The notes under the pieces: model-generated | Told to the model about the DNA's origin: nothing | What the model saw: only the letters and a program-made list of their open reading frames with translations | Databases searched by the model: none | Position numbers and translations under genes: made by a program | Origin: a virus | Virus record (IMG/VR): IMGVR_UViG_2928010679_000002 | Length of the DNA stretch: 64,000 bases | Direction: 5' to 3' (one strand) | Part shown: in pieces, positions 19,408 to 62,223 of the stretch | Numbering within the stretch: position 1 is the first letter of the stretch | How the letters are laid out: the number at the start of each line of letters is the position of its first letter

Positions 19408-19968
19408 ATGGCAGATGCCCGCAAATCCACAACCGCCCTGGTGCTCGAGGCCGTGCAAGACCTCTACAACCAGGAGCAGATCGTCACCCGCGAGACGCTC
19501 GCCGAACTCACGGGCCTGAAATTGAGCGTGATCGACGACCGCCTGGGCACCTTGGCCGACGACGGCGCCATCCTGCGCGTGCAGCGCGGGGTGTACGTGC
19601 CGGCGCCGCAGCATCCGCCGGCCCGGCCGATGTCGAAGACCGTGATGCCTGACGGCATGGTCAAGATCGAGATCGGCGACGAGGTGCTCACACTGACGCC
19701 GCGCGAGGACCGCGCGCTCGCCAACCTCATGGCCGGTGCCGCCGCGCAGGCCGCTGCCATCGAGACGGGACGCAACACCGCCCTCATGGCGGCCGAGCTC
19801 GGCGAGGAGGTGAAGCGCCTGCGCCGCCAGGTCGCCGCCCTTGAGGTTCGCATCGACCCGAACCAAGCCCAGCTGTTCGAGACCCCCTGTAGGGCGGGCG
19901 CCAAGGCGGCCAACGGGGCAAAGTTCGGTCGCGGTGTAGCTCAGCCTGGTAGAGCACAGGGCTCATAA
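19408..19968 (+). CDS. Winged-HTH protein, candidate late-gene activator; 3' end runs into the tRNA
   Basis: TRETLAELTGLKLSVIDDRLGTLADDGAILRVQRGVY; last gene before the late region; GAGGAG RBS. Confidence 0.65.
   Translation: MADARKSTTALVLEAVQDLYNQEQIVTRETLAELTGLKLSVIDDRLGTLADDGAILRVQRGVYVPAPQHPPARPMSKTVMPDGMVKIEIGDEVLTLTPREDRALANLMAGAAAQAAAIETGRNTALMAAELGEEVKRLRRQVAALEVRIDPNQAQLFETPCRAGAKAANGAKFGRGVAQPGRAQGS
19883..19924 (+). promoter_or_regulatory. Late-promoter-like motif copy 1 (tRNA)
   Basis: CCCCCTGTAGGG, then CAAAGT ending 34 nt after the T of TAGGG; tRNA starts 6 nt later. Confidence 0.55.
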
Positions 19969-20006
19969 CCCAGAGGTCGGCGGTTCGATTCCGTCCCCCG
20001 CAACCG
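19930..20006 (+). tRNA. tRNA-Met(CAT), initiator (fMet) type, with two extra mismatches
   Basis: Cloverleaf; anticodon loop CTCATAA; C1:A72 mismatch and three G-C pairs closing the anticodon stem (initiator hallmarks); T-loop TTCGATT; ends ACCG, not ACCA. Confidence 0.9.
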
Positions 20007-20207
20007 GAACCAACCCCGGTACATGGCGTCAGCCCTGGCGTCGGAGTGGGGGGCAAGCCGCTCCACGATTACCCCTTGCGCATCCCAGGGGCTTCAGGGT
20101 GGGATGAAAACCGCACGATCCAGCGCTTCACCGCGCAGCCGGATGGATCGAACCCGGCGCCTTCGCCGGACAGTTGTCTCCTCGCCTGCTATCTTGCGGG
20201 TGATTCG

Positions 20208-20238
20208 CCCACCGGGTTCGCCCGGTGGGTTTTTCTTT
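20208..20238 (+). terminator. Intrinsic terminator after the tRNA region
   Basis: CCCACCGGG-TTCG-CCCGGTGGG then TTTTTCTTT. Confidence 0.85.
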
Positions 20239-20242
20239 GGGC

Positions 20243-20569
20243 TTAGGCCTTCGCGGATGGTGCCTTCGCAAGGTGGATGAGAGCTTCGGCCTGAACCTTG
20301 GCCAGCAGGCGAAGGGCTTCTTCCGGGTTCGACTTCGCAAACTGTGCGAGCCAACCTTCGAGGTCTGCCTGTTCAAACTGAAAGTGCACGAGGAACGCGC
20401 CGCCGAGCGTTAGATTGTTGACCTTGCCGTAGGCCGAGGTTGCATCGTCCCAGATCAATGCCTTGTTCGACTCTGTCCTGATTCCCCCTCCAGCGGCCTT
20501 TCGCACTGGTGTAACCGGATGGCTATGCAGAGTGGTGGCCCGCTGCCAGCCTCGAAAAGTGAGTTTCAT
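20243..20569 (-). CDS. Cargo (moron) protein of unknown function
   Basis: 108 aa, GGAG RBS, antisense to the late genes, sits between the terminator and the terS promoter. Confidence 0.7.
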   Translation of the reverse strand: MKLTFRGWQRATTLHSHPVTPVRKAAGGGIRTESNKALIWDDATSAYGKVNNLTLGGAFLVHFQFEQADLEGWLAQFAKSNPEEALRLLAKVQAEALIHLAKAPSAKA

Positions 20570-20634
20570 GCTGTCTCCATTGTTGTTACAGCATCGTAAC
20601 GAATAGATCGCGATTAGGGCGAAGGCTCTGCAGT

Positions 20635-20676
20635 CCCCCTATAGGGTTCGACCCACCAGCCGTCGCCCGGAACACT
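20635..20676 (+). promoter_or_regulatory. Late-promoter-like motif copy 2 (terS)
   Basis: CCCCCTATAGGGTTCGAC...AACACT, 7 nt, ATG. Confidence 0.7.
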
Positions 20677-20683
20677 CGCGCGC

Positions 20684-21649
20684 ATGGCAACTCGCAAGCC
20701 GGCCAAGAAGCAGGCACCCGCACCGAAGAAGACCACCACCAAGCCCGCAGCCCCCAAGAAGGCCGCGAGCGCACCTGCGCGCAAGAAGGCACCGCCCGCT
20801 AAGGTGACGAAGAAGAAGCCAGCACGACCCGCCCGAGTAGTTCCAGTACCAGCATCCCAACCTGCGCAGCTCGTAGTCACTGACCTGCAGCAGCGCTTCG
20901 TCGACGAGTACTTGGTGGACCTGAATGGGACTCAGGCTGCCATCCGAGCCGGCTACAGCCCTGACAGCGCCCGGCAGATGGCGTCCGAGAACCTGTCAAA
21001 ACCGTACATCCAGGCTGCGATTGCTGCCGCCCGGAAGCTGCAACAGGAGCGCACTCAGGTCGATGCCGATCGCGTGGTGACGGAAGCGTGGAACATCATG
21101 CTGGCCGACCCGCGCGAACTGGTGCAGGTGAAGGTCGGTTGCTGCCGGCATTGCTGGGGCGAGGGCTTCAAGTTCCAACGCACCATCGGCGAGTTCAATC
21201 ACGACCAGGAGCACCACGCCCTGAAGGCTGGCAGCCTGGCCGACTTCGACGAGAAGGGCGGCATCGGCTTCGATCCGCTCAAGCCACCGCATCCATCCTG
21301 CCCAGACTGCGGCGGTGATGGGCACGCGCGCACCGTGCTGGCCGACACGCGGCGCCTCTCGCCCCGGGCGATCGCGCTCTACGCCGGCGCCAAGATGACC
21401 AAGTTCGGCATCGAGATCGCCATGCACGACAAGGGCGCGGCGATGGAGAAGCTGTTCAAGCACCTGGGCCTGTACGAGAAGGACAACCAGCAGAAGACCG
21501 ATCCGCTGGCCGCGCTGCTGCACAGCATTGCGAACGGGAACGGCAACGGGTTCCGGCCTGTCGCCAACGATCCGGAGACGCCAGAAGCCCCAACGGGCCC
21601 TAACAGTCTGATGCCGCGGGAGGATGTCGACGATGGCCGCCCAGGCTAA
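20684..21649 (+). CDS. terS: Terminase small subunit with a Cys-rich insertion
   Basis: QQRFVDEYLVDLNGTQAAIRAGYS...A...ASENLSKPYIQAAI; CCRHCWG...CPDCGGDG. Confidence 0.93.
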   Translation: MATRKPAKKQAPAPKKTTTKPAAPKKAASAPARKKAPPAKVTKKKPARPARVVPVPASQPAQLVVTDLQQRFVDEYLVDLNGTQAAIRAGYSPDSARQMASENLSKPYIQAAIAAARKLQQERTQVDADRVVTEAWNIMLADPRELVQVKVGCCRHCWGEGFKFQRTIGEFNHDQEHHALKAGSLADFDEKGGIGFDPLKPPHPSCPDCGGDGHARTVLADTRRLSPRAIALYAGAKMTKFGIEIAMHDKGAAMEKLFKHLGLYEKDNQQKTDPLAALLHSIANGNGNGFRPVANDPETPEAPTGPNSLMPREDVDDGRPG

Positions 21650-23384: not shown

Positions 23385-23393
23385 GAGCACCCA

Positions 23394-25739: not shown

Positions 25740-25745
25740 CCGGTC

Positions 25746-26444
25746 TCAGGCCGATGCCGCTGGGCGCATGTACTCACCTCTCACGCTTTCGTACATGGGC
25801 GGCATGCCCAACTTGGCGAAGAATTCATCTGTAAAGGCCACTGCGGATCTGACTGCCCATGCCGCGCAGCCGGCGCCCAGCATCTTGTCCGGGTAGTAGG
25901 GGTTGCCGGGACCAGTCAGGGGATTGTTGGGAAACTTGCTCTGAAGTCCATCGAATGCGTGCGCCTGCGGCTTTTTGCCGTCGACCGCGGAGGTGATGGT
26001 TTCGGGCTCGAAGTGGACGAGGGCATTGCGCAGGTTGACGAGTTGCTTTGCGTCCTGATAGGGGCTGCGGCTGGTGTCGAAAGACGGCTTGCCGTTCAGT
26101 TGCAGCGCGATCTCGTATTTTTGAAGGATGGGATACCCGGCCCTGCGCGGTATTCCCTGTTTCCACATCGCCTCCATCAATGCTCGCGCTGGCAAGCAGG
26201 CGAGGCGCTCAAACTTCGGATCATCAACGCAATCCGAAAAGAGCTCATTGATTGTGGCCTCCAGGAAGGCGGCTGCCATCACGACAGCGGACGCCGAGGC
26301 CGCCGAGTGTTTCCGCCACTCTGGACCTTCGATTACTGGAGGCAAAGGCCTGTTTTCTACCTCCCTGCACTGATCCACGAAAAGCGCTGCTGCGGAAAGG
26401 TGGCGGATGGAAAAGTAGTGCCGAAAGGAAATGGTAACGCTCAT
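25746..26444 (-). CDS. HEPN-like cargo protein
   Basis: MAAAFLEATINE helix and LVNLRNALVH (RxxxxH) motif; antisense insertion after the portal. Confidence 0.65.
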   Translation of the reverse strand: MSVTISFRHYFSIRHLSAAALFVDQCREVENRPLPPVIEGPEWRKHSAASASAVVMAAAFLEATINELFSDCVDDPKFERLACLPARALMEAMWKQGIPRRAGYPILQKYEIALQLNGKPSFDTSRSPYQDAKQLVNLRNALVHFEPETITSAVDGKKPQAHAFDGLQSKFPNNPLTGPGNPYYPDKMLGAGCAAWAVRSAVAFTDEFFAKLGMPPMYESVRGEYMRPAASA

Positions 26445-26833
26445 CTAGGCTCGCTCATGGCGCCTTCAAAGTAGGTCGCTGCATTGTGCTCGGCCTGCCG
26501 GTCGGCCCCCCGTCGGGTTCGCACGAACTTCGTACGTTCCCGAGCATTGGCCGGTCAACGGTAGCGGCCACGACAACCAACCCAGAGCCCTGTGTTCTGG
26601 CATCCCACCTCCGCGACGAGGCGGCCGCAGCGCCGGCCGTACGCGAGAACAACAGCCGGACTTTCCCGCCGTGGCCATCAAGCGGTGCAGGGCGGCTGTA
26701 GGGTGCTGAGACGCGAGTGAAGCCGACAATTTCGCGACCGAAGGTGCTGCCAACTGACTGCTTCGCGCTTGCACTCGCTTGGATGGAATACATTCCCCCG
26801 AGCACGTGGACGTTCATCGGAACTGGATCAAGA

Positions 26834-27886: not shown

Positions 27887-27891
27887 ATGCC

Positions 27892-28557: not shown

Positions 28558-28682
28558 ACGCGAAAGGACAGGGCGTTTCGAAGCAATCGTCGGCCACAAG
28601 GAAACCATGCCACGCACAAGGTCAATGGTCTTCGCATGAAAACGTTATATCATGCGCAGACTATCAACTTTAGGTGCGAACT

Positions 28683-29372: not shown

Positions 29373-29418
29373 TCGAAGGATCGGTCATCCATCCGTACTG
29401 GTTGCCGAGCGCAACCCG

Positions 29419-29444
29419 AAGCCGCCCGTGAGGCGGCTTTTTTG
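29419..29444 (+). terminator. Intrinsic terminator closing the cargo island
   Basis: AAGCCGCC-CGTGA-GGCGGCTT then TTTT. Confidence 0.8.
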
Positions 29445-29446
29445 TT

Positions 29447-29489
29447 CCCCCCTGTAGGGTTTCGCCTTTGTCTCCCGCTTCTTGAAACT
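29447..29489 (+). promoter_or_regulatory. Late-promoter-like motif copy 3 (scaffold-capsid operon)
   Basis: CCCCCCTGTAGGGTTTCGC...GAAACT at the same 34-nt spacing, directly after the terminator. Confidence 0.7.
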
Positions 29490-29630
29490 GCCCCTCAAGC
29501 ACCGCGCGCGAGCGTTGGGGCGACGTCACGGTGGCAACGCCGTGGATTCAAGGCAGATGGCGCGGGCCCATGTGGCTCGCACCGGATTGCTGGCCCCTTT
29601 GCGGCCACGGCGATATGTGGCGGGACAGGC

Positions 29631-32580: not shown

Positions 32581-32588
32581 TGTCGACG

Positions 32589-48879: not shown

Positions 48880-48891
48880 CCGACTAGGATA

Positions 48892-48932
48892 CCTCTGTGG
48901 GGTTGGACAGCGATGGGCTTGCTTCGAAGAAT
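48892..48932 (+). promoter_or_regulatory. Late-promoter-like motif copy 4 (diverged)
   Basis: CCTCTGTGGGGTTGGAC...AAGAAT at the same 34-nt spacing, 7 nt, ATG 48940. Confidence 0.6.
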
Positions 48933-48939
48933 CGAGTGC

Positions 48940-50958
48940 ATGACTTCCCAGAGGCTGCCCATGCTCGGCTTTCGACCACAAATGAAGAGCGACCTATCGC
49001 AACACCTTGCCGAGGGAGGCCTCGTGCGGGGTCTCGTCCGTCGCGTGATGGGCATTCCAGAACCGGTCGACGCCGGTGCGGCAGCGCCAGCACCTGCGCC
49101 GATCGCGGCACCAGCTCCCGCCCCCGCACCCGAGAAAGCGTTGACCCAGTACGCAGGCATGAGCGCGACAGAGCGGCGCATGAAGGCGGCTGGCCTGAAG
49201 GACGGGGGGCCGGTGCGTGGGCCTGGCACCGGCACCTCCGACAGCATTGAAACCGAGGCCCGCCCGGGCAGCTACATCATGCCGGCCGACTCGACCGAGC
49301 AGATGGGCGAGCAGGGCGTTGCATCGTTGGGCTTTAGCCCGGAGAAGGTGCCTGTCAATCTGAGCAACGGCGAATTCCAGCTGCCCCCCGAGCAGGTGCA
49401 TGCCGTCGGTGTGCAGGCGCTCGATGCGATCAAGGACGCAACGCATGCTCCTGCTGGCGCGCCGGGCGGCTTCCGCCCGGGCGGCGAGGACCAGGCGCTC
49501 TTTCTTGCCGACGGCGGCCTGGTTGACGAGGAGGCGCGCCGCCGGGCGGGCGGCGCGCCCATGAGAGGGGCGGATGTCAGCGCAAGCGTGCCGGCGCCCC
49601 TGCCGATGCTGACCGCGTCCATGGCGCCAAGCCCGCAGGCGCTTCCGGCACCTGCGCCCGTGGCCGCAGATGCACCGCGCTCCGAGACCAATCCGCTCGC
49701 GCAAACGCAAGGTGCTGCATTCGGCGTGTTCCGCCGCGAACCGACTGCGGGCACGCGCGGCGGCATGATGCAACCCTATGTGGCAACCGGACCTTCGGCC
49801 TTTGAACCGGCCAAGGTGCAGGAAGGAACGGGTCGCCTTGATGCATTCACCGACCCGCGCTCCACGCTGTTCAAGGGCGGCGACAGTGCCGCACCCGCGC
49901 CTACCAGCCGCGGGTTTGCCGGTGTCGGCGAGGGATGGGGCAATGGGGCACACCCGGCGGTTGCTGCCCCGGCCGCCGCCCCTGCCGTCCGACCTGCTTC
50001 GGCGGCACCCGTCGTTGCGCCGACTACCGCACCAACTTCGGCCGAGACGTCCGCGGACACTCCCGCCGCGAGCCAGGTCATGCCGGGCGTGTTCCGTCAG
50101 GGGAACAGCTACGGCGACTCGCCAGCTGCAGCCGCTGCTGGTTTTGCGCCGCGAAGCGGGCCCAGTGGCCAGAACATGGCCGCTGCAGATGCGCTCGATG
50201 CTCGCGGCGTGGCGGCGCGAGCCGGCGAGCGCGCGGCCGCCGCCGATGTTGCAGCCCGCGGCTTCAGCCCTGGCAATGGCCTCTCGGTGATCGGAGACGA
50301 TACGCAGGCAGACCGCCTGCGCCGGAGCGCAATCGCGGCTGCCAGCACGGCATACAGGGGGTCGCCGAACGGGCAACTGACCGCGAATCAGTTGCGAACG
50401 CTGGCGGGAATGGACGAAGCCAACGGCCGCAACGCTGTGACGCGCGAAACCACCGCCGCCAACAACGCTTCGGCGCTTGAGCGCGAGGCCATGCAACAGG
50501 CCGGCGCGACCGGCCGTACGCTGGCCGGCGAGGCGGGCGCCAATGCGCGTGCAGGTGCCTCCAACGACGTTCAACGGGGAGAACTGGCGCTGCGCCAGGA
50601 GGCCCAGGGCTTCCAGACGCGCGGCGCGCAGCGGGTGGAGAAGCTGTACGAGCAATACGAGAAGGCCAAGCCTGAAGAGCGGGCCGCGATCGGCGAGCAG
50701 ATCCGCACGCTCACCGGCAAGGACCACGCCAACCGCTTTACCGTTGTCGCCGGAGGCCAAGAGGTGGACCCGACCACGCAGCAGCTCACGACGCGACCGG
50801 CACGGGTGTTCAACAACCAGACCGGGCAGTTCGTCGATCAGCCGGCCGGCCAAGGGCAGCGCACCGCGATGCCGCCGGGCATGACGCGCCAAGTCGGCAC
50901 GTCGGGGGGCAAGCCGGTCTACGAGGACTCGCAGGGCAAGCGCTTCATCGGAGGCTAA
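48940..50958 (+). CDS. Ejection/internal virion protein
   Basis: GGPVRGPGTGTSDSI...VPVNLSNGEFQLPPEQV motif, A/P-rich linkers; start set by the promoter motif. Confidence 0.7.
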   Translation: MTSQRLPMLGFRPQMKSDLSQHLAEGGLVRGLVRRVMGIPEPVDAGAAAPAPAPIAAPAPAPAPEKALTQYAGMSATERRMKAAGLKDGGPVRGPGTGTSDSIETEARPGSYIMPADSTEQMGEQGVASLGFSPEKVPVNLSNGEFQLPPEQVHAVGVQALDAIKDATHAPAGAPGGFRPGGEDQALFLADGGLVDEEARRRAGGAPMRGADVSASVPAPLPMLTASMAPSPQALPAPAPVAADAPRSETNPLAQTQGAAFGVFRREPTAGTRGGMMQPYVATGPSAFEPAKVQEGTGRLDAFTDPRSTLFKGGDSAAPAPTSRGFAGVGEGWGNGAHPAVAAPAAAPAVRPASAAPVVAPTTAPTSAETSADTPAASQVMPGVFRQGNSYGDSPAAAAAGFAPRSGPSGQNMAAADALDARGVAARAGERAAAADVAARGFSPGNGLSVIGDDTQADRLRRSAIAAASTAYRGSPNGQLTANQLRTLAGMDEANGRNAVTRETTAANNASALEREAMQQAGATGRTLAGEAGANARAGASNDVQRGELALRQEAQGFQTRGAQRVEKLYEQYEKAKPEERAAIGEQIRTLTGKDHANRFTVVAGGQEVDPTTQQLTTRPARVFNNQTGQFVDQPAGQGQRTAMPPGMTRQVGTSGGKPVYEDSQGKRFIGG

Positions 50959-51106: not shown

Positions 51107-51112
51107 TGACGA

Positions 51113-51391: not shown

Positions 51392-51402
51392 AAGGAATTG
51401 AG

Positions 51403-51723: not shown

Positions 51724-51744
51724 GCAGAACGTTCGCGCGGCGCG

Positions 51745-51771
51745 GCGGCCCCATTGGGGCCGCTTTTTTTT
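51745..51771 (+). terminator. Intrinsic terminator of higBA
   Basis: GCGGCCCC-ATT-GGGGCCGC then T8. Confidence 0.88.
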
Positions 51772-51785: not shown

Positions 51786-51827
51786 CCCCCCGTAGGGTTC
51801 GACTCGTCCGCCCTCGGGAGGAAAACT
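51786..51827 (+). promoter_or_regulatory. Late-promoter-like motif copy 5
   Basis: CCCCCCGTAGGGTTCGAC...AAAACT, 6 nt, ATG 51834. Confidence 0.7.
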
Positions 51828-51833
51828 GGCGCA

Positions 51834-54800
51834 ATGGCCAGTTCCGACCTCAAACCCTTCGACGGGCAACTCGACGCCCCACCACAGAACCTCAAGCCGT
51901 TCTCGGGTGAGCTCGACTCGCCCGAGAGCCCGAAGCGCTCCGCCCTGGACGTCGCGAAGGACATTGGCGTCACTGCACTGAAGGGTGCCGTTGGGCTACC
52001 GCAGGCTGTCGTTGGCCTTGCCGACATTCCTACGGGCGGCCGAGTTGGTAAGGCGCTCGACGACGCAGGTGTCCGTTTCAAGGACACGCAGGACTTCCTC
52101 GCCGATCAGTACTCCGATGCCCAGAAAGCCGCGAACAAGAAGGTCGCTGCGGCGGATGGGTTCGTCGGTACCGCCCAGGCGATGATCGAGAACCCGAGCA
52201 CGATCGCCACCAGCGTGGGTGAGTCCATCCCCCAAATGCTGGGTGGCGCAGGCGTTGCGCGTGGGCTGTTGAAAGTCGCGCCGAAGATCGGTGCCGCTGT
52301 CGCCGGCGCCGCCGGCGAAGGTGTGATCGGTGCTGGCTCGCAGGCAGAGCAGATCCGCGGCGAAACCAAGGACGGATTGCTCACGCCGACCCAGGCGGCC
52401 TTGGCTGCCGCGACGGGTGCCACGACCGCCGCCTTTGGCGCCGCAGGCGGCAAGCTGGCTCAGCGCCTTGGCATCGGTGATGCAGAAACGATGCTGGCCC
52501 AGGGCTCGATCCAAGGTCCTGGTCGCGCATCGCAGCGCTCCCTCGCGCGCCAGGTTGGTGAGGGCGTGCTGTCCGAAGGCGTGCTCGAAGAGGTGCCGCA
52601 GTCGATGGCCGAGCAGGCGCTGCAGAACCTTGCCCTGGACAAGCCGGTCGGTGAAGGCGTGGGCGCGGCCGCGGCGCAGGGGTTGCTCGCTGGCGGCGCA
52701 ATGGGCGGGGGCGCGGCGCTGGTGCATGGTGCCGGGGCCCGCGGCGAGCCTGCGACGGCCGCGCCTGCTGACGGCATGGCGCTCGCGCCGCAGGAGCAAC
52801 CACCCGCGGCGCCCGCTGAGACGCTTCCGGCCGTGGAAGGCGGGGCAGCCAGCATCCAGCGCACGTTCGATCCCCGCGACCCCGGCAGCCGGCCTCCCCT
52901 CGATGTGATGCCGCCGGTTCCTTCGGATGGCATGCCGTTCGAGGCGGGCCCCGCTGGTGCACGCCTCGAGTTCGACACGGGCGAACTTGCGCTGGCCGAT
53001 CGCGCAGCACCACCGCGCCCTTCAGAAGCGATGGGCCTCGACCCGGCTGCGGGCCCGTTGTCCGCGGGCGCGGTGATCGCGGTAGATTCTGGTGCGCACG
53101 GCCAGCTGCTGCAGGATGCGCAGCGCCAGGTCGATGCGGCCGCACTGGCTGAACAAGAGCAAGCCGTGGCGGCGAACCGCGCCGCGCCGCCGGTGCTCGA
53201 CTACTCCGACCTCGACGAGCGAGACCGCTCGCTCTACGACGACTACTACCGCACGCTGGACCGCGATACCGAAGGGCACATGGCCGCGGCGCTCGTGGAC
53301 GACGTCCCCGACTTCGCTGACCAGCGCAACGTCACCGATGAACAATTCCTCCGCGCACTCGGCGCGAACGATCAGGAGATTGCAGATGCCATTCAAACTG
53401 CCCGCGGAGCCGCGGGCCCGGAAGAACGTGCTGGCGGCCCTATTGCGCCTGCGGCAGATGTCGCCGAAGGCGCGAGACCGGCTGCTGCAGCAGCTCCGAT
53501 CGAGCAAGGACAAGCCCAGCCCGCGCAAGCAGTAGTCGCACCGCCTGCGGCCACGGCCGTCGCGACTGCTGCTCCAGCACCGGCCAGCGTGCAGGAGGGC
53601 ATTGCGCGCGCGCGCGGCCGCCGTGCTGAGCAGGCGCCGGCAGCAGCGCCGGCGGCAGCGCCGACTGTGGCGCCAGTTGCGGCGCCTGCAGGTGTGGTTG
53701 GTACTGGCCAAGTGCCAGTGGCGAAGCGCGAGAAGGCGGTGCAGCGTGTGCAGCAAGGCAAGGCCTGGTTTCTGTCGCAGGAGAAGGCGGACGCCTTCGT
53801 AAACGATTCAGGTCTTGGCGACACGCACCAGGTGGTGCCCGACAACCGGCGGTTCGTGGTGCAACCGAAGTCCACCGAGCCGGTTGCCGCGACTACCTCC
53901 GAGGTAGCGCCGCCTGCTGAACCGAGCGGCAAGACGCCAAGCGGGGAGTGGGCGGCGTTCGCGAAGGACTCGGGCACCAGGGGCGTGCCGCGGGCTGAGA
54001 TGCCGCAGATCAAGGCTGAACACCGCGGCGCCATGACCAACTTCATGAACGCGCGCGGAATCTCGCATGCGGAAGAGACGGTGCCGGCGGCGAGTCTCAA
54101 GCCTACGCAGGCCGAGTTCAGCCCGGCGCGCGTGCAGCAGGCGAAGGAGTTCCAAGGGGGCGACCGCGCCATTCTTGTGTCGCGCGACGGGCATGTGCTT
54201 GATGGCCACCACCAATGGCTCGCAGCGCGTGAGCGCGGCGGCGATGTCCGCGTCATCCGATTGGACGCACCGATCACCGACCTGCTCGCGGCTGCTCACG
54301 AGTTTCCCAGCTCCACAATCGACGCGGCGAGTGCGCGCGGTCCGGTACAAGCGGCTCCTGCGGCTACCGCCGCGCCTGCTGCCGAGCCTGCGAAGCCGGC
54401 ACGAGGTGTTGTTGCCAAGGCTCGGGAGGCCAAAGCCAAGCGGGAACTGAAGGCTGACCGTATCGCTCGCGAGGCGGAGGAAGCCCGTGCCTCGTACTTC
54501 ACGCCTGGCAACGTAGTGCGCAGCTACGGGCAAGGCTTCGATGAAGTTATCAGCCACAAGCCAGCCGACCAAGAGGGCAATTGGTCGGTCTCGGTGCGCG
54601 CCGTGCGCAAGATCGGCGCGGCGAAGTTTGAACCGATCCCGGGCGAAATTGAGCGTACGCACAGCACGCAGCCAAGCGAACGCGAACTGAAGGTCGGACC
54701 GGCGGCTCGCATGGCTGGGACGGCACCGAAGGCGCAGGTTCCGGCCGCGGCACCAACTGTTGCTCCTGCTGAGCCCGCGGCTGATGCCGGCAAGATTGTG

Positions 54801-57800: not shown

Positions 57801-60800
57801 CTCGATCGCATCTACAGCGTCAACCCAGCGGCCGAGGCCGCCGCGACCGATGACCAGACCGAGACGCCGGCGTTTCGTGCCTGGTTCGGGGACAGCAAGG
57901 TGGTCGACGCCGACGGCAAGCCGCTCAGGGTCTTCCACGGCACCGACCAATCCTTCACAGCCTTCGATGACGAATTCATTGGCGAGGGGAATGGAAACAG
58001 CGATTGGGGCAACGGCTTCTACTTCACCGACTCGAAGCAGGCGGCAGACGGCTATGCGCAGGGCGACGAAGGTCGAACACTCGAGGTCTACCTGTCGATC
58101 AAGAACCCCGCCCCGATGGAGGTGGTCAACGACGTCATGGAGCAGCCAGGGGCCGAAATGGACGCGGACTATGTCCGGCAGGAGCTGGCCAGCCGCGGCT
58201 ACGACGGCATCATCGTGAACCACAAGGGCGGCGAGCGTGAGTTCGTTGCCTTCCAGCCGACGCAAATCAAGAGCGCGAACGGCAACATTGGCACCTTCGA
58301 CGAGTCGAACCCGGACATTATGTTCAGCCGGTCGACCGTGGGCGAGTACGCGCGCACCGCGGCCGCCGAGTTGAACAAGACGTTCTCGGCGCCGGGCCGG
58401 CTCAGCTGGTGGCACAAGACGATCGGCACCATGTACAACCTGGCCGAACGCTCGCCGGCATTCAAGCCCGTGTTCGACGCTGCGCAGGGCTTCGTCGACG
58501 ACGTGAGCCAATATGCGACCGACGCGGCCGAGCTGGCGCCCAAACTACTGCCGAAGCTGGAGACCTGGCGCGACATCAAAAAATCGCCAATCGCGGCCGC
58601 CGACAACACAGCGGTGGCCAAGCCCGTCTTCGAGGGCACGTTGACCTGGGCGCGAGACGAGCAGGGCCTGCCGGTGCAGGTGCAGACCCTGATCGACGCT
58701 GCCGCCGGCCTCACCGCCGAGCAGAAGGCCCAGCGCCTGCTGCGCAACGGCCAGATCGATGAGCGCATGCTGAAGGCTTGGCAGGGTATGCCGCTCGACT
58801 CCTACGAGAAGGCAGTGGCATCGCGCTACGAGTCGCGCATGCTGCAGCCCGGCGTGGTCTGGAGCGACGCCGAGCTGCGCAGCATGTTCCAGTTGAGCGA
58901 CGACCAGATCGCGCTGTATCGGGAGTTCCGGGATGCCACGAACCGCAGCCTCGACACCATGGCGCGCGCCGACATGCTGCGCTTCGCAGGCGACGACGCG
59001 AAGGGCCTGCGCACGATGGTGATGGACGCGCCGGACGCGCAGACGGCGGCGGTGCTGATTCGCGACCACCTCGCGCAGTTGGCCAGCGACCAGCCGGACC
59101 GTTCCACGCTGCTGATGAACACCGCCAATGGCATCATCGATCGGGCCGATAAGGTGCGCGATCTGCAGGCCCGCGGCTACGCGCCTCTGTCGCGTTTCGG
59201 CCGCTACACCGTCGACGTGGTGGACGCGAAGGGCGAGCGACAGTACTTCGGACTCTTCGAGACCGCGCGCGAGGCGAACACGATGGCCGCGAACATGCGT
59301 GGCGAGTTCGGCGACGCTGCAGTGAGCCAAGGGACGCTGTCCGAGGAGGCCTTCAAGATGTTCGCCGGCGTGACGCCCGAGACGCTCGAACTCTTCGGCA
59401 GCGCCCTGGGCTTGGACGCGACCGGCGATCGCGCGCAAGACCAGGCGTTCCAGGAGTACCTCAAGCTCACGAAGACCAACCGTAGCGCGATGCGCCGGCT
59501 GATCCACCGCAAGGGCACCGCTGGCTTCAGCGAAGACGTGGGCCGTGTGCTGGCTTCGTTCATCTACAGCAATTCCCGCCAGACGGCGGCCGGCCTGAAC
59601 ATGGGCGACCTGGGCGAGGCGGTCAACGCGATCCCGAAGGAACAGGGCGAGCTGAAGGACGTGGCTGTGCGCCTGGCCGAGTACGTGAAGAACCCGCAGG
59701 AGGAGGCGCAGGCCGTGCGCGGCCTGTTGTTCGCGCAGTACTTGGGCGGCTCGATCGCATCGGCATTCGTGAACATGACGCAGCCAGCCGCCGTGACCTT
59801 CCCGTGGCTCAGCCAGTACGGCGGCGCGCGCAAGGCGGCCGCGGCGCTGGGGACTGCCGCCAAGCACATGGCCACTAAGGGCTTTCAGTACGAGCCGGAT
59901 CTGGCGAAGGCGCTGAAGACCGCGGAGGAGGAGGGCGTGGTCAGCCCCCAGGAGGTGCACCAGCTGATGGCGCAGGCCCGCGGCTCGGGCTCGCTGCGTG
60001 CCGGCGACGGCACGCGGCTGGGCGAGGCACGCGCGGCCGGCCAGAACGCGCTGGCGCGGCTGTCCCTCGCATGGGGCAAAGTCTTCGGCGCGGCGGAGCA
60101 GGTGAACCGCCGCATCACCTTCATCGCCGCGTTTCGGGTGGCGCGCGATCGCGGAGAGACTAACCCTGCGGGCTTCGCCAATCGGGCGGTGAAGGAAACC
60201 CAGTTCGTCTATTCGAAGGCATCGAAGATGCAATGGGGACGCGGCGCCGTGGGCGGCACGCTGATGACCTTCAAGACCTATTCCATTGCCTATCTCGAGC
60301 TGCTGCACCGCATGTACACCCAGGGCGGCCCCGAAGGGAAGCGCGCCGCGCTTCTGGCGCTGGGCACACTGATGATGATGGGCGGTTCGGGCGGGCTGCC
60401 CTTCGCGGAAGACCTCGAGGACCTGGTCGACGGTCTTGCGCAACTGCTGGGCTACAACTTCTCGGCGAAGAAAGCGCGGCAAGAAGTTCTCGACGCCATG
60501 CTGCCGAAGGGCATCGCCGACTTCCTCGAAAAGGGCGTGAGCGGTCTGCCGGGCGCGCCACTGGACGTTTCGGGTCGGCTGGGCATGGGGAACCTGGTCC
60601 CGGGCACCGGGCTGCTGCAGCAGAAGACGAACCATACGCGCGACGTGCTGGAGATCGTCGGACCGGCCGGAGACTTCGCGAGCCGCATCTTTTCGGGCGC
60701 ACTCAAGGTGGCGACGGGCAATGTGGGCGCCGGCCTTATGGAGGTTTCACCCGCGGCCGTGCGCAACGCTGCCAAGGGTGCCGACATGGCCGTGACCGGC

Positions 60801-61208
60801 ATGTATCGGGATGCAAAGGGCTACAAGGTGCTGGACACCAACCACCTCGAGGCGGCGCTGAAAGCGATCGGATTCCAGCCGCAAAGCGTGGCCACCATCC
60901 AGGAGGCCAACAGCCTCAACCAGCAGGCGAAGGGTTTCTACAACCTGCGAGCACAGGAGATTCGCGCGCAGTGGGCGGCGGGCATCTTCGAGAAGAACGA
61001 GGACAAGGTGAGCGATGCGCGCGCGGCGGTGGCTGACTGGAACGCCAAGAACCCTGAGCAGAAGATGATCATTCGCATCCCCGACATCATGCGCCGGGTG
61101 CGGGAGATGCAAAAGTCCAAGGACCAGCGCATCGCTGATACCGCAGCCAAGGCGATGCGCGCTCAGATGCGCGAGGAGGCGGCTCGGGCGCGTGCTGAGG
61201 CTGCGTAG
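51834..61208 (+). CDS. Large polyvalent protein (3124 aa), probably injected with the DNA
   Basis: ParB-like (LDGHHQW), LPD5/LPD1-like (DFGEKIGGARKD; FRGVEFGNW; LAHEWFHAMD), zincin (YHEVLGHHG), ART-like (VFHGT...GFYFT...EFVAF), PLxRFG (APLSRFG), C-terminal LPD38-like region. Confidence 0.85.
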   Translation: MASSDLKPFDGQLDAPPQNLKPFSGELDSPESPKRSALDVAKDIGVTALKGAVGLPQAVVGLADIPTGGRVGKALDDAGVRFKDTQDFLADQYSDAQKAANKKVAAADGFVGTAQAMIENPSTIATSVGESIPQMLGGAGVARGLLKVAPKIGAAVAGAAGEGVIGAGSQAEQIRGETKDGLLTPTQAALAAATGATTAAFGAAGGKLAQRLGIGDAETMLAQGSIQGPGRASQRSLARQVGEGVLSEGVLEEVPQSMAEQALQNLALDKPVGEGVGAAAAQGLLAGGAMGGGAALVHGAGARGEPATAAPADGMALAPQEQPPAAPAETLPAVEGGAASIQRTFDPRDPGSRPPLDVMPPVPSDGMPFEAGPAGARLEFDTGELALADRAAPPRPSEAMGLDPAAGPLSAGAVIAVDSGAHGQLLQDAQRQVDAAALAEQEQAVAANRAAPPVLDYSDLDERDRSLYDDYYRTLDRDTEGHMAAALVDDVPDFADQRNVTDEQFLRALGANDQEIADAIQTARGAAGPEERAGGPIAPAADVAEGARPAAAAAPIEQGQAQPAQAVVAPPAATAVATAAPAPASVQEGIARARGRRAEQAPAAAPAAAPTVAPVAAPAGVVGTGQVPVAKREKAVQRVQQGKAWFLSQEKADAFVNDSGLGDTHQVVPDNRRFVVQPKSTEPVAATTSEVAPPAEPSGKTPSGEWAAFAKDSGTRGVPRAEMPQIKAEHRGAMTNFMNARGISHAEETVPAASLKPTQAEFSPARVQQAKEFQGGDRAILVSRDGHVLDGHHQWLAARERGGDVRVIRLDAPITDLLAAAHEFPSSTIDAASARGPVQAAPAATAAPAAEPAKPARGVVAKAREAKAKRELKADRIAREAEEARASYFTPGNVVRSYGQGFDEVISHKPADQEGNWSVSVRAVRKIGAAKFEPIPGEIERTHSTQPSERELKVGPAARMAGTAPKAQVPAAAPTVAPAEPAADAGKIVDFGEKIGGARKDRAEKTGARGAAAPKDDRPAWARRFQVSQIAKSRDGSEDGRWVIRDSRSLDFMKQPRQVGRETYATREEAEAAVPLAAVSLKHRVTYTRDGKFEIWRDVTDRKRVKVVEQSFDTREDALRHLAENASAIIETNTTFGEADLPRPASEQRVGAERRTGDVKDGDFGSTFGFRGVEFGNWNNQADRQQLLNDAYDGLLDLADVMGIPPRAISLDGELALAFGARGSGLSGARAHYEPEKAVINLTKMNGAGSLAHEWFHAMDHYFGRQDGKAPTEWVTDKDGTRSLKVNNDFERNAASGGTRGERSGMRAEVQDAYRNLMNTITRKAEQYTEDTAKADKFVGTARSEVEARLAGIRKYLAEKLPDYFKRNNKPATAEQLAEFDTLAQQIINGEALELRVQSKNPKAAARLAGFRWTNDVLEKMSGILKAVRGQAGFSADQKGTLDALRGDMQRYSQRLKMLADAQGSTEKTRAVPTSFAMDARELDQGRGQDYWTTPHEMAARAFQGYVEDKIAERGGTSPFLNYGPENAGILTPWGVKRPFPHGAERVAINSALDKLVDVIQTREGEGGNMALFRRSDDGLANMTPAAAAAMRALSRMPYSPRARSQAVQSVQKTVDAVRANWGNAPDVVVAFDMNDAVVPEAARRADLRQRSGGARGAPEGFYYRGKAYLMASRLASQEDAARVLYHEVLGHHGLRGRFGKQLDGVLNQIATMRRADVDAKIREYGLRGVNKLDRRAAAEEVLAEMAQNTPELHFVRRAVAAIRTWLRAHVPGFRGLRLTDDEIIRNFILPARQFVERGAGAAKPGAQLAFSRAEGVDADAESRVFLDGAPVAEMSGKEFASDGVPLTEKVTQFYASTGNTEVDVAGIGLVSLDRQAVKSSLFHGIGRDKATAFAAVPDVLKNGKIIHAEAMEGSRDAGIVYHVAAPVRIGDRDMVEVVLVRADSNAKRMYVHEVVLKEKLRQTAFKTGADAAEAGVQARAGAGAIRSVLDRIYSVNPAAEAAATDDQTETPAFRAWFGDSKVVDADGKPLRVFHGTDQSFTAFDDEFIGEGNGNSDWGNGFYFTDSKQAADGYAQGDEGRTLEVYLSIKNPAPMEVVNDVMEQPGAEMDADYVRQELASRGYDGIIVNHKGGEREFVAFQPTQIKSANGNIGTFDESNPDIMFSRSTVGEYARTAAAELNKTFSAPGRLSWWHKTIGTMYNLAERSPAFKPVFDAAQGFVDDVSQYATDAAELAPKLLPKLETWRDIKKSPIAAADNTAVAKPVFEGTLTWARDEQGLPVQVQTLIDAAAGLTAEQKAQRLLRNGQIDERMLKAWQGMPLDSYEKAVASRYESRMLQPGVVWSDAELRSMFQLSDDQIALYREFRDATNRSLDTMARADMLRFAGDDAKGLRTMVMDAPDAQTAAVLIRDHLAQLASDQPDRSTLLMNTANGIIDRADKVRDLQARGYAPLSRFGRYTVDVVDAKGERQYFGLFETAREANTMAANMRGEFGDAAVSQGTLSEEAFKMFAGVTPETLELFGSALGLDATGDRAQDQAFQEYLKLTKTNRSAMRRLIHRKGTAGFSEDVGRVLASFIYSNSRQTAAGLNMGDLGEAVNAIPKEQGELKDVAVRLAEYVKNPQEEAQAVRGLLFAQYLGGSIASAFVNMTQPAAVTFPWLSQYGGARKAAAALGTAAKHMATKGFQYEPDLAKALKTAEEEGVVSPQEVHQLMAQARGSGSLRAGDGTRLGEARAAGQNALARLSLAWGKVFGAAEQVNRRITFIAAFRVARDRGETNPAGFANRAVKETQFVYSKASKMQWGRGAVGGTLMTFKTYSIAYLELLHRMYTQGGPEGKRAALLALGTLMMMGGSGGLPFAEDLEDLVDGLAQLLGYNFSAKKARQEVLDAMLPKGIADFLEKGVSGLPGAPLDVSGRLGMGNLVPGTGLLQQKTNHTRDVLEIVGPAGDFASRIFSGALKVATGNVGAGLMEVSPAAVRNAAKGADMAVTGMYRDAKGYKVLDTNHLEAALKAIGFQPQSVATIQEANSLNQQAKGFYNLRAQEIRAQWAAGIFEKNEDKVSDARAAVADWNAKNPEQKMIIRIPDIMRRVREMQKSKDQRIADTAAKAMRAQMREEAARARAEAA

Positions 61209-61249
61209 CGCGTCGAGGCTGTGGCCGCAGCCTCACGAGGTGCCCGACA

Positions 61250-61852
61250 TCAGGTCGCAAGGGCTATGAGGTCCGGACTGTTGAGCAGTTCGTCGGCAAG
61301 GCGGCGAAGCATGCGAAAGTGATTGTTTTCGAGGGGCACCTGTGTTGTCGCGCCATCGGCGTTCGTCGTGTTCAAAAGCCACAGGTGTTCTCTGAAGGCT
61401 TTCAGGTCGTCATCTGCTTCATCAACGTGAGCACCGCCATCCTTGTGTGCCGCGGCGAGCGCAACCTGCGCGCGGTTAAAAGTCACTCCGTCGCGAAAGA
61501 AAATGGCTTCATTCCACCAAGCATCGGCGGCAATCGTAGGCGAGCCCGGAGGCACTGGCGTCGGGCGGATCGTATTGCCAAAATTCTGGCCTGCGAGAAG
61601 CTCGGCATAGTCGAAGTTGTGATTCGGAGGTAATGCCCGCGCAGTGGTCGTGACCTGCAGGGTGGCTTTTTGACCGAGTTGCTTCAGCAGCGACTTGCTT
61701 TTGCCGGTGTCGTGAAAGAGGACGCGGAGGGTCACTCCGATCCGGATCGCCTCCAACCCCGAATCGTCAGAGTCAAAGGCCGCGCAAGAGTTTTTGAGGA
61801 AAACTAGCTGACGCTTCAGGTGTTCGAGCAATTCCTGCTGGGTGAGAGCCAT
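61250..61852 (-). CDS. Cargo protein with possible HEPN-like motif
   Basis: 200 aa from ATG 61852; LRVLFHDT...RAQVALAAAHKDGGAHVD; antisense to the late genes. Confidence 0.7.
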   Translation of the reverse strand: MALTQQELLEHLKRQLVFLKNSCAAFDSDDSGLEAIRIGVTLRVLFHDTGKSKSLLKQLGQKATLQVTTTARALPPNHNFDYAELLAGQNFGNTIRPTPVPPGSPTIAADAWWNEAIFFRDGVTFNRAQVALAAAHKDGGAHVDEADDDLKAFREHLWLLNTTNADGATTQVPLENNHFRMLRRLADELLNSPDLIALAT

Positions 61853-61905
61853 GGTGTGTTTCGACGGTTGGTGATCGCAAATTATGCGCAGACAACCGCT
61901 GGCAT

Positions 61906-61947
61906 CCCCCTCTAGGGTTCGACGCCGAACGCCTGCCTCGAAATCAT
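61906..61947 (+). promoter_or_regulatory. Late-promoter-like motif copy 6 (lysis cassette)
   Basis: CCCCCTCTAGGGTTCGAC...AATCAT, 6 nt, ATG 61954. Confidence 0.7.
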
Positions 61948-61953
61948 CGGGGC

Positions 61954-62223
61954 ATGCGAAACGAAACCATCGACACCTTGGCCGCCGTCGGCGGGAAAGC
62001 ATCCGTGACCGGGGTTGGCATGACCGGCGTAGGGTGGTTCCTCTCCAACGAATTCTTCGGGCTGGTCGGCGCTCTAGTCGCCGTCGGCGGCCTGGTGCTG
62101 GCGTGGTACTACAAGCGCGAGGCCAACTACCGGCAACTGGTCGAGCACGAACTACGTGTTGCGCGCCTGCGCCGCGGCATGAAGTCGGACACCGACCTTG
62201 GCGAACTGGGCAGGGTCGACTGA
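61954..62223 (+). CDS. Holin
   Basis: 89 aa, hydrophobic segments, basic C-terminus, directly before the lysozyme. Confidence 0.8.
   Translation: MRNETIDTLAAVGGKASVTGVGMTGVGWFLSNEFFGLVGALVAVGGLVLAWYYKREANYRQLVEHELRVARLRRGMKSDTDLGELGRVD

What the first reader, a model, noticed from the sequence alone, without database searches (positions are those of the whole stretch)
19883..61954. Six-copy late-promoter motif with exact 34-nt spacing to a -10-like hexamer
Seen: CCCCCTG-TAGGG-CGGGCG..CAAAGT (19883; tRNA), CCCCCTA-TAGGG-TTCGAC..AACACT (20635; terS), CCCCCCTG-TAGGG-TTTCGC..GAAACT (29447; scaffold/capsid), CCTCTG-TGGGG-TTGGAC..AAGAAT (48892; ejection protein), CCCCCCG-TAGGG-TTCGAC..AAAACT (51786; polyvalent protein), CCCCCTC-TAGGG-TTCGAC..AATCAT (61906; holin). 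In all six the last T of the hexamer is 34 nt after the T of TAGGG/TGGGG, and the hexamer keeps the -10 A2 and T6. I noticed none in the early region. Inference: an activator-dependent late regulon rather than lambda Q antitermination (no Q recognised). The wHTH gene 19408..19968 is the positional candidate activator.
Basis: partly seen in the sequence, partly recalled or inferred. Interest (0 to 1): 0.72.

Follow-up and report, generated by a model that had tools for sequence, protein, structure and literature searches.

The report
Late-gene promoter boxes of F116-like prophage
Six copies of a 14-base box sit at a fixed distance from a weak -10 element in front of every late operon of this F116-like prophage; they are most likely late promoters switched on by an uncharacterised phage winged-helix protein, and most of them should produce mRNAs that begin at the start codon.

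Summary
All six sites exist at the stated coordinates, and the T of the hexamer lies exactly 34 nt after the T of TAGGG/TGGGG. A weight matrix built only from relatives ranks these six as the top six hits in 64 kb. None is in the early region.

The window is an F116-like (Hollowayvirus-related) provirus, probably of Variovorax. The same two-block motif stands before the same late genes in F116, LKA5, Shewanella phage Y11, Acidovorax phage AP1 and dozens of prophages. In 72 of 84 copies found by the box alone, A is at +30 and T at +34.

In three whole host genomes, every exact copy lies inside the prophage, on the late-gene strand.

Geometry puts the box at about -48 to -35, next to a weak -35-like TCGACn. 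In four window sites an ATG lies 7-8 nt after the hexamer, with no Shine-Dalgarno sequence, which predicts leaderless mRNAs. At a fifth site the tRNA 5' end lies 6 nt after it.

ORF 19408-19968 (phrog_8117, winged helix plus long helix) is the only early gene shared by all eight box-bearing phages compared. Divergent subfamilies of it go with altered boxes.

No transcript start or DNA binding has been measured. This scan had already reached the same reading on other genomes. I found no paper describing it.

The parts
19408..19968 (+). Candidate late activator gene, the last gene of the rightward early operon. Its conserved core is residues ~12-155 of the 193-aa frame that starts at 19387. The poorly conserved tail is read through box 1 and into the tRNA.
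   Evidence: phrog_8117, E 1e-56, no Pfam family. 56% identical to LKA5 gp037. AlphaFold model with pLDDT 81.6: winged helix 15-72, three strands, helix 105-155. The winged helix matches IdeR/DtxR at Z 10, rmsd 1.6 over 63 residues. It is the only early gene shared by 8 box-bearing phages.
19883..19924 (+). Promoter 1: box 19883-19896 (CCCCCTGTAGGGCG) and hexamer CAAAGT at 19919-19924. The tRNA 5' end (19930) lies 6 nt after the hexamer.
   Evidence: score 29.9. The same box and CAAAGT precede the tRNA in L116, L121, L123, L125 and L126.
19930..20005 (+). tRNA-Met (CAT), the product of promoter 1. It has initiator-like features.
   Evidence: ARAGORN. C1 opposite A72 and three G-C pairs closing the anticodon stem were read.
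20207..20230 (+). Intrinsic terminator after the tRNA unit.
   Evidence: 10-pair stem followed by a T run.
20635..20686 (+). Promoter 2: box 20635-20648, -35-like TCGACC at 20648-20653, hexamer AACACT at 20671-20676, terS ATG at 20684 (+42). No Shine-Dalgarno sequence.
   Evidence: score 40.2. terS by Pfam Terminase_2. ATG at +42 or +43 in all orthologous terS sites.
29418..29440 (+). Intrinsic terminator directly upstream of promoter 3.
29448..29489 (+). Promoter 3: box 29448-29461 and hexamer GAAACT at 29484-29489. It serves the scaffold/capsid-to-tail operon. The first in-frame start after the inferred transcript start is ATG 29631, so this transcript has a leader.
   Evidence: (score 33.0). 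Orthologous sites in LKA5 (28379), F116 (28687), L121 and L128.
48891..48942 (+). Promoter 4: degenerate box 48891-48904, good -35 TGGACA at 48904-48909, hexamer AAGAAT at 48927-48932, ATG at 48940 (+42, in frame with ORF 48913-50958).
   Evidence: score 17.5. It is the only one of the six sites picked up by the sigma-70 consensus scan (9 of 12). Strong boxes occupy the same place in LKA5 (45886) and F116 (45737).
51744..51764 (+). Intrinsic terminator directly upstream of promoter 5.
   Evidence: 9-pair stem followed by T8.
51786..51836 (+). Promoter 5: box 51786-51799, TCGACT at 51799-51804, hexamer AAAACT at 51822-51827, ATG at 51834 (+41) of the 3124-aa polyvalent protein gene (51834-61208).
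   Evidence: score 23.1; ART-PolyVal, LPD1, LPD3.
61906..61956 (+). Promoter 6: box 61906-61919, TCGACG at 61919-61924, hexamer AATCAT at 61942-61947, ATG at 61954 (+41) of the holin gene (61954-62223). It heads the lysis cassette.
   Evidence: score 26.2; Phage_holin_2_4; DUF2514 spanin-like downstream.
26506..26547 (+). Possible decayed seventh copy: C6-G-TCGGG-TTCGC with GAGCAT ending at +34. It lies about 170 nt upstream of the DUF262 cargo gene.
   Evidence: Seventh hit of the matrix scan, score 11.4. It has C where every confirmed copy has A at +1. Relatives carry a strong box at the equivalent post-portal position. Uncertain.

Best explanation
The six sites are the late promoters of an F116-like temperate phage.

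**Architecture.** Each site has a 14-bp box, CCCCC-T-N-TAGGG-n-T. With the hexamer's last T taken as -7, the box lies at about -48 to -35. It abuts a weak -35-like TCGACn, followed by a 17-bp spacer and a weak -10 (nAnnnT) that keeps only the A and T that sigma-70-type factors need most.

**Proposed mechanism.** Host RNA polymerase alone should use these sites poorly. The product of the last early gene (19408-19968) is a winged-helix protein with a long, probably dimerising, helix. I propose that it binds the box and recruits or stabilises the polymerase, in the way class II activators and Mu Mor/C act.

**Expected transcripts.** Transcription should start 6-8 nt after the hexamer:
- at the A of the ATG, or 1 nt before it, for terS, the ejection-protein gene, the polyvalent-protein gene and the holin gene (leaderless mRNAs);
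- next to the 5' end of the tRNA-Met;
- about 135 nt upstream of the scaffold gene.

Terminators in front of promoters 3 and 5 split the late region into separate units.

**Shown here:** the motif, its spacing, its conservation, its restriction to phage DNA, the gene context, the fold of the candidate protein, and the co-occurrence and co-variation of box and protein.

**Inferred:** that the sites are promoters, where transcripts start, that they depend on an activator, and which protein is the activator.
For: **Exact geometry.** T is at +34 in 6 of 6 window sites. In relatives, 72 of 84 unique copies found by the box alone have A at +30 and T at +34, against about 3% expected from base composition. 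Most of the rest are shifted by 1 nt.

**Start codons.** An ATG at +41 to +43 opens an ORF of at least 60 codons at about a third of those 84 copies and at 4 of 6 window sites. No Shine-Dalgarno sequence precedes these four window ATGs. In Acidovorax phage AP1, an independently annotated CDS start (32940) is exactly +42.

**Conservation in diverged DNA.** The motif precedes the same late genes in LKA5 (24111, 28379, 45886), F116 (22734, 28687, 45737, 59208), Shewanella phage Y11, AP1 and 16 IMG/VR relatives.

**Restricted to phage DNA.** Three whole host genomes were searched: Variovorax paradoxus NBRC 15149, Pseudomonas sp. LjRoot71 and Acinetobacter higginsii. All 4, 6 and 2 exact copies of CCCCCTNTAGGG lie in the prophage, on one strand, with none elsewhere. 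The reversed-pattern control gave 0-1.

**Direction.** In 35 GTDB loci centred on the regulator gene, 29 sites lie downstream on the same strand, 3 upstream and 1 on the opposite strand.

**Weak as sigma-70 promoters.** A consensus scan finds none of sites 1, 2, 3, 5 and 6. It finds only site 4, whose box is degenerate but whose -35 is good. Terminators abut sites 3 and 5.

**Regulator.** It has a winged-helix fold. It is the only early gene shared by 8 box-bearing phages, some of which show no detectable portal, scaffold or capsid similarity to the window. Three box types track three regulator groups:
- CCCCCTGTA(G/A)GG with regulators at least 50% identical to the window's;
- CCCCCAGTAGGG at 17 of 18 sites in three phages whose regulators are 37-39% identical (the 18th reads TGGGG);
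- CCCCGGCTAGGG-type boxes with regulators 35-38% identical.

On the regulator tree the box labels need 3 changes against a shuffled mean of 5.9, and 0 of 200 shuffles were as low.

**No competing machinery.** No sigma factor, Q protein or RNA polymerase gene was recognised, and the giant gene encodes a polyvalent protein.
Against: - No 5' end, binding or activation has been measured.
- RNA-library contigs of a related prophage run across the boxes and give no information on transcript starts.
- The box-regulator association could be plain co-inheritance within one phage lineage. The variant groups are small (3 genomes each) and sit on long branches.
- No simple residue-to-base correspondence is visible in the recognition helix.
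- The symmetric part, CCC-N4-GGG, is only about 10 bp. That is short for a classical winged-helix dimer binding two major grooves.
- Several early ORFs have no family match, so an unrecognised factor cannot be excluded.
- Site 1 lacks the TTCG part and lies inside a reading frame. Site 4 is not significant on score alone.
Confidence: 0.6

Rival explanations
1. The sites are late promoters, but the factor that reads the box is not the product of 19408-19968. It could be another phage protein among the unannotated small ORFs. Alternatively, 19408-19968 binds the box in another role, such as a repressor or timer, or as a Q-like factor loaded at the promoter.
For: Several early ORFs have no family match. 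No clear residue-to-base covariation is seen in the recognition helix. The short palindrome fits a winged-helix dimer poorly.
Against: No other early gene is shared by the 8 box-bearing phages compared. The regulator gene usually sits at the end of the early operon, upstream of the first box. Terminators directly upstream of boxes argue against read-through control.
Confidence: 0.17
2. The sites are promoters used by host RNA polymerase without any phage factor. They would be constitutive, or recognised by a host regulator or an alternative host sigma factor.
For: A -35-like TCGACn at 17-bp spacing and an A2/T6 hexamer are present. Site 4 passes a sigma-70 consensus scan.
Against: The box is absent from the rest of three host genomes from three families, so no host regulon uses it. 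The same box serves phages of hosts from Comamonadaceae to Moraxellaceae and Shewanella. Box variants follow the phage regulator group. Unregulated holin and terminase promoters would be harmful in a lysogen.
Confidence: 0.08
3. The box is not mainly a transcription signal. It could be a DNA-level module boundary or recombination site, or an element acting in RNA (a small CCC/GGG hairpin or a processing site that creates the 5' ends).
For: Homology to a related prophage resumes exactly at the box starts 20635 and 29448. Cargo genes lie just upstream of boxes. CCC...GGG could pair.
Against: These ideas do not explain the fixed 34-nt distance to an A...T hexamer, or the further 7-8 nt to the ATG or tRNA end. 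A 3-4 bp stem is weak and shows no compensatory change. Conserved promoters at module heads would produce the same homology breakpoints.
Confidence: 0.07
4. The sites are promoters for a phage-encoded sigma factor or RNA polymerase.
For: The long, highly conserved upstream element and the non-canonical -10 resemble phage-specific promoter classes.
Against: No sigma or RNA polymerase domain was found in any ORF scanned. The 3124-aa protein carries ART-PolyVal, LPD1 and LPD3 domains, not a polymerase. Single-subunit polymerase promoters are contiguous with the start site, not 41 nt upstream of it.
Confidence: 0.03

Closest known systems
Phage Mu middle and late promoters activated by Mor and C
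   Same: A phage-encoded activator made from an earlier operon. Several late promoters have a poor -35 and share a conserved, partly symmetric site centred near -43 that abuts or overlaps the -35 region. Host sigma-70 polymerase is used. (The Mu facts are from general knowledge, not tested here.)
   Different: The regulator here has no Pfam family at all, so no Mor family hit, and its predicted DNA-binding domain is an N-terminal winged helix. The box sequence is unrelated to Mu's. The -10 lacks the first T. Most transcripts are predicted to be leaderless.
Class II (-41.5) activator-dependent promoters (CRP/FNR type) and lambda cI at PRM
   Same: The activator site lies next to the -35 hexamer at about -42. 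PRM also produces a leaderless mRNA (general knowledge).
   Different: The factor here is phage-specific, has a different fold and shows no sign of a ligand-binding domain. The site is about 14 bp with only a 10-bp symmetric core, against 22 bp for CRP.
Lambda Q / P22 gp23 late antitermination
   Same: The regulator gene occupies the same genome position, as the last early-right gene just before terS. It would serve the same purpose of switching on late genes.
   Different: Here there are six separate promoters instead of one. Terminators directly precede two of them. No Q-family protein was recognised.
T4 MotA/AsiA middle promoters; P2 Ogr and P1 Lpa late promoters
   Same: A phage activator box is combined with a -10 read by host sigma-70 (general knowledge).
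   Different: The box positions differ: -30 for MotA, -55 for Ogr, -22 for Lpa. The proteins are unrelated, and no AsiA-like co-factor was identified here.

Membership tests
Sigma-70-type promoter | -10 hexamer with A at position 2 and T at position 6 | tested here: met
   6 of 6 window sites. 72 of 84 copies in window and relatives that were found without using the hexamer.
Sigma-70-type promoter | -35 hexamer resembling TTGACA, 16-18 bp upstream of the -10 | tested here: inconclusive
   TCGACn (4 of 6) at a 17-bp spacer in sites 2, 5 and 6. TGGACA in site 4. TTCGCC in site 3. Nothing in site 1. The consensus scan accepts only site 4.
Sigma-70-type promoter | Transcription starts 5-9 nt after the -10 | not testable with these tools
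   Only assembled contigs of RNA libraries were available, and they cross the sites. The ATG at +41/+42 and the tRNA end at +40 are indirect support.
Class II activator-dependent promoter | Activator site abutting or overlapping the -35, centred near -41.5 to -43.5 | tested here: met
   With the hexamer's last T taken as -7, the box spans -48 to -35 and its CCC/GGG symmetry centre is at about -41.5 to -42.5. This depends on the inferred start site.
Class II activator-dependent promoter | Promoter activity requires the activator | not testable with these tools
   Needs reporter assays, in vitro transcription or genetics.
Mu Mor/C activator family | Sequence or fold homology of the regulator to Mor/C | tested here: not met
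   The Pfam scan of 19387-19968 at E <= 0.01 gives only a sub-threshold RepL hit and no Mor family. The DNA-binding domain is an N-terminal winged helix of IdeR/IclR/MarR type.
Lambda Q-type antitermination | A Q-family protein and a single late promoter whose transcript reads through downstream terminators | tested here: not met
   No Q family among the early ORFs scanned, though some have no hit at all. There are six promoter copies, two of them immediately after strong terminators.
Leaderless mRNA | The 5' end of the transcript lies at, or within a few nt of, the start codon, with no Shine-Dalgarno sequence | tested here: inconclusive
   The geometry fits. ATG is at +41/+42 in 4 of 6 window sites and at +41 to +43 in about a third of the 84 copies overall, with G+C-rich, SD-free sequence between hexamer and ATG. 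The 5' ends are unmapped.
phrog_8117 | Significant match to the family profile over most of its length | tested here: met
   E 1e-56, residues 9-155 on profile positions 8-154 of 166. The family has no assigned function.
Phage RNA polymerase promoters (T7-like or N4 virion polymerase) | A phage-encoded RNA polymerase | tested here: not met
   The only giant gene (51834-61208) carries ART-PolyVal, LPD1 and LPD3 domains. No polymerase domain was found in the scanned ORFs.

The most novel reading that the evidence does not exclude
F116-like phages and their many prophage relatives run their late programme through a dedicated expression mode. An undescribed winged-helix activator family places host polymerase so that transcription starts exactly at the AUG of several late operons. 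The phage also supplies an initiator-type tRNA-Met from the same promoter class, which would couple a private transcription switch to leaderless, Shine-Dalgarno-independent translation. Box and activator have diversified into at least three specificity groups that could insulate co-resident prophages from one another.
Probability: 0.3. Interest if true: 0.8.

Novelty: new variant of a known kind. Interest (0 to 1): 0.6.

Why it matters
F116 is a classical generalised transducing phage of Pseudomonas aeruginosa, and its relatives are common prophages in Pseudomonas, Variovorax, Acinetobacter, Shewanella and other Proteobacteria. Even so, I found no paper on how they switch on late genes, and the regulator is annotated as 'hypothetical' in nearly every record.

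The finding offers three things:
- a precise, testable model: one protein, one 14-bp box, six promoters;
- corrected start codons for several genes, for example terS in F116, LKA5 and AP1;
- a natural set of three box/regulator specificity classes that could serve as orthogonal switches.

The predicted run of leaderless late mRNAs in Gram-negative hosts, together with a phage initiator-like tRNA, would be an unusual translation strategy and is worth testing.

Tried and rejected
**RNA evidence.** Four runs were laid on 19000-34000. All were assembled contigs from a prophage about 92-93% identical to the window, and they cross the boxes. No starts, strands or expression levels can be read from them, so this is inconclusive.

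**Whole-protein fold matches.** Only the winged-helix domain (residues ~10-76) finds structural relatives. The beta segment and the long helix found no informative match.

**TAAGG as a fourth specificity class.** Rejected. TAAGG and TAGGG boxes occur together in the same phage (G025, L182, L185, F116), so this is tolerated variation within one regulon.

**Repeated k-mer discovery.** In G+C-rich and A+T-rich relatives it gave only compositional noise.

**Locus search with the diverse alignment.** The search for related loci failed with alignment A2, so A1 was used.

**Literature.** Searches for F116 with 'late promoter' or 'transcription start sites', Hollowayvirus, the box sequence itself, Bcep22-like phages, and leaderless late promoters found nothing describing this motif or regulator. 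The 2005 F116 genome paper is not in the library and could not be checked. The F116 GenBank record carries no promoter features. The promoter and terminator features in the LKA5 record are ab initio predictions. Two annotated 'terminators' overlap the scaffold box there.

**Host-background test on the window's own genome.** Not possible, because the record is only the 65-kb provirus. Three host genomes of relatives were used instead.
Full report
**What the window is**

The window is almost the whole of a 65.4-kb IMG/VR provirus. Its terminase, portal and capsid genes are about 73% identical in DNA to Pseudomonas phages F116, LKA5, phiC725A and other Hollowayvirus members. The closest protein relatives of its genes come from Variovorax.

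The layout is lambdoid:
- a leftward early operon with recombination genes;
- a CI-like repressor (10905-11642) facing a Cro-like gene (11678);
- a rightward early operon with methyltransferase, PAPS reductase, replication, RusA, NinB and HNH genes, ending in ORF 19408-19968;
- then tRNA-Met, terS, terL, portal, a low-G+C cargo island, scaffold and capsid through the tail genes, a leftward cargo cassette, an ejection-protein gene, a 3124-aa polyvalent protein and the lysis genes.

**Checking the observation**

All six sites are present as described. The last T of the hexamer is exactly 34 nt after the T of TAGGG/TGGGG in each. Four sites are strong; the pattern CCCNNNTRGGGNT finds 4 matches against 0.72 expected.

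A weight matrix built from 43 sites in other genomes, with the window excluded, ranks the six sites as the top six hits on both strands of the 64 kb (40.2 down to 17.5). A seventh candidate at 26513 scores 11.4, and everything else scores 0.5 or lower. The best hit in Markov simulations averaged 2.6, with a maximum of 17.6.

Site 4 (48898) is therefore not convincing on score alone. It is supported because strong boxes stand before the homologous gene in LKA5 and F116, and because an in-frame ATG lies at +42. Site 1 has the complete C5-TG-TAGGG box but not the TTCG that follows it elsewhere. No copy lies in the early region or on the minus strand.

**Conservation in other phages**

LKA5 carries the box before terS, the scaffold gene and gp58. 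F116 has four copies. Sixteen IMG/VR relatives carry it at the same places, plus extra ones.

Copies were then collected with the box alone, so that the hexamer played no part in finding them. Of 84 unique copies, 72 have A at +30 and T at +34, and most exceptions are shifted by one base.

The box also occurs downstream of the regulator homologue in prophages of Pseudomonas, Methylotenera, Azomonas, Alkanindiges, Acinetobacter and Psychrobacter, and in cultured phages Shewanella Y11 and Acidovorax AP1. Some of these hosts have 37-46% G+C, where a C5-containing 12-mer is very improbable by chance.

**Is the motif phage-specific?**

It is not. In three complete or near-complete host genomes, all exact CCCCCTNTAGGG copies lie inside the prophage on one strand and none lies elsewhere:

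| Host genome | Size | Exact copies, all in the prophage |
|---|---|---|
| Variovorax paradoxus NBRC 15149 | 6.0 Mb | 4 |
| Pseudomonas sp. LjRoot71 | 4.4 Mb | 6 |
| Acinetobacter higginsii | 4.7 Mb | 2 |

In 35 GTDB loci centred on the regulator gene, 29 sites lie downstream on the same strand, 3 upstream and 1 on the opposite strand.

**Anatomy and inferred mechanism**

Taking the hexamer's last T as -7, the box occupies about -48 to -35. Bases +6 to +11 read TCGACn in sites 2, 5 and 6, which is 4 of 6 matches to TTGACA at a 17-bp spacer. The hexamer keeps only the A and T that matter most for -10 recognition.

A standard sigma-70 scan finds none of sites 1, 2, 3, 5 and 6. It does find site 4, where the box is degenerate but the -35 is TGGACA. 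That looks like compensation.

Strong intrinsic terminators end immediately before promoters 3 and 5, and another follows the tRNA. The late region is therefore cut into separate units that must each re-initiate. This is the opposite of Q-type read-through.

No sigma factor, Q protein or RNA polymerase was recognised. The giant gene encodes a polyvalent protein with ART-PolyVal, LPD1 and LPD3 domains.

**Predicted leaderless transcripts**

In the window:
- The ATG of terS (20684) and of the ejection-protein gene (48940) is at +42.
- The ATG of the polyvalent gene (51834) and of the holin gene (61954) is at +41.
- The 5' end of the tRNA (19930) is at +40.
- No Shine-Dalgarno sequence lies between the hexamer and any of these ATGs.

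Across all 84 copies, about a third have an ATG at +41 to +43 that opens an ORF of at least 60 codons. In phage AP1, an independently annotated CDS start is exactly +42.

This is what promoter geometry predicts if transcription starts at or next to the A of the AUG. The annotated terS starts in F116, LKA5 and AP1 do not coincide with the +42 ATG, and each is in frame with it. The scaffold promoter is the exception, with a leader of roughly 135 nt.

**The candidate activator**

ORF 19408-19968 belongs to phrog_8117, which has no assigned function, and has no Pfam family. It has 559 homologues in the protein collection. The 120 best were listed, and every name a source gave them was 'hypothetical protein' or similar. 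Among phage records, two annotate it as a putative AbiEi antitoxin and the rest as hypothetical or unknown.

The AlphaFold model (pLDDT 81.6) shows a winged helix at residues 15-72, three strands and a 50-residue helix. The winged helix superposes on IdeR/DtxR, IclR and MarR DNA-binding domains (Z 10, rmsd 1.6 over 63 residues).

In a tblastn matrix against eight box-bearing phages, it is the only early-region gene present in all of them. In several of these phages no portal, scaffold or capsid similarity to the window was detected.

Regulators at least 50% identical to the window's go with CCCCCTGTA(G/A)GG. Three phages with regulators 37-39% identical have CCCCCAGTAGGG at 17 of their 18 sites (the 18th reads TGGGG). 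Three with regulators 35-38% identical (G004, G009, AP1) mostly use CCCCGGCTAGGG-type boxes. On the regulator tree, the box labels need 3 changes against a shuffled mean of 5.9, and 0 of 200 shuffles were as low.

This fits a protein-box pair that evolves together. Because the groups are small and sit on long branches, it could also reflect shared descent. No simple residue-to-base rule is visible in the recognition helix.

**Limits**

Nothing here measures transcription or binding. The RNA-library data available were contigs that cross the boxes. The dimer test was not available. The symmetric core of the box is short for a winged-helix dimer.

My estimates are about 0.85 that the sites are late promoters dependent on a phage factor, and about 0.6 that the factor is the product of 19408-19968.

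**Comparison with known systems, and novelty**

In function, the closest systems are Mu Mor/C-dependent promoters and class II activator promoters, where an activator site abuts the -35 near -42. Lambda PRM is a comparable example of a leaderless product.

The regulator is not a member of the Mor/C, Q, Ogr, Lpa or MotA families by sequence (no Pfam family at all). By fold it is a generic winged helix. Library searches found no description of the box or the regulator. The 2005 F116 genome paper could not be read.

Earlier notes of this scan had reached the same reading on other genomes, and on this window for the leaderless and cargo aspects. I arrived at mine before reading them and treat them as agreement, not as evidence.

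I class this as a new variant of a known kind: an activator-dependent phage late regulon with an undescribed activator family and an unusual bias toward leaderless transcripts.

Noticed in passing
window 20635 and 29448 (box starts); cargo at 20006-20634 and 25746-29372: Contigs of a related prophage (about 92-93% identical) lose homology after the regulator core or the portal gene and regain it exactly at the first base of boxes 2 and 3, with different DNA in between (3185 and 2241 nt). The boxes therefore mark the downstream edge of exchangeable cargo slots. The 25746-29372 island has 55-60% G+C against about 65% elsewhere.
   Followed up: partly
window 19930-20005: The tRNA-Met (CAT) has initiator-like features: C1 opposite A72, and G29-G31 paired with C39-C41. 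However, it has C11:G24 rather than A11:U24, and it does not encode the full CCA end. It sits 6 nt after the hexamer of promoter 1, so it would be made together with the predicted leaderless late mRNAs.
   Followed up: partly
window 19387-19968: The regulator's reading frame continues past its conserved core (about residue 155). It runs through box 1 (codons T-P-C-R-A-G) and stops only inside the tRNA gene. Homologues have unrelated tails, except where the box itself is translated.
   Followed up: partly
relatives: G007 43848, G009 17532 and 5939, LKA5 (L001) 24111, F116 (L207) 1235: In many relatives the -10 hexamer is flanked by an inverted repeat (for example CCCGG-hexamer-CCGGG) that ends just before the ATG. 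It would not be present in the promoter's own transcript, but it would fold in read-through RNA. The window's sites show this only weakly (site 6).
   Followed up: no
window 51078-51764: A near-consensus sigma-70 promoter (TTGAAA-17-TACAAT, 10 of 12) precedes two small ORFs (51113-51391 and 51403-51723). They are followed by a strong terminator just before promoter 5. This looks like a self-contained moron.
   Followed up: no
window 47001-48981, minus strand: A leftward cassette sits between the tail and ejection genes. Its last gene (48298-48981) is an HTH_3 plus NinX-domain protein, and its start region overlaps promoter 4 divergently. This gene is not conserved in other box-bearing phages.
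   Followed up: partly
F116 AY625898 22734-22776; LKA5 KC900378 24111-24153; AP1 OM049504 18296-18338: The annotated terS starts (22851, 24357 and 18320) do not coincide with the ATG at +42 from the box, and each is in frame with it. The terS start codons in these records are probably mis-set.
   Followed up: partly
window 26506-26547: A decayed box-like sequence (TCGGG instead of TAGGG) with GAGCAT ending at +34 lies about 170 nt upstream of the DUF262 cargo gene. Relatives carry a strong post-portal promoter at the equivalent position.
   Followed up: partly
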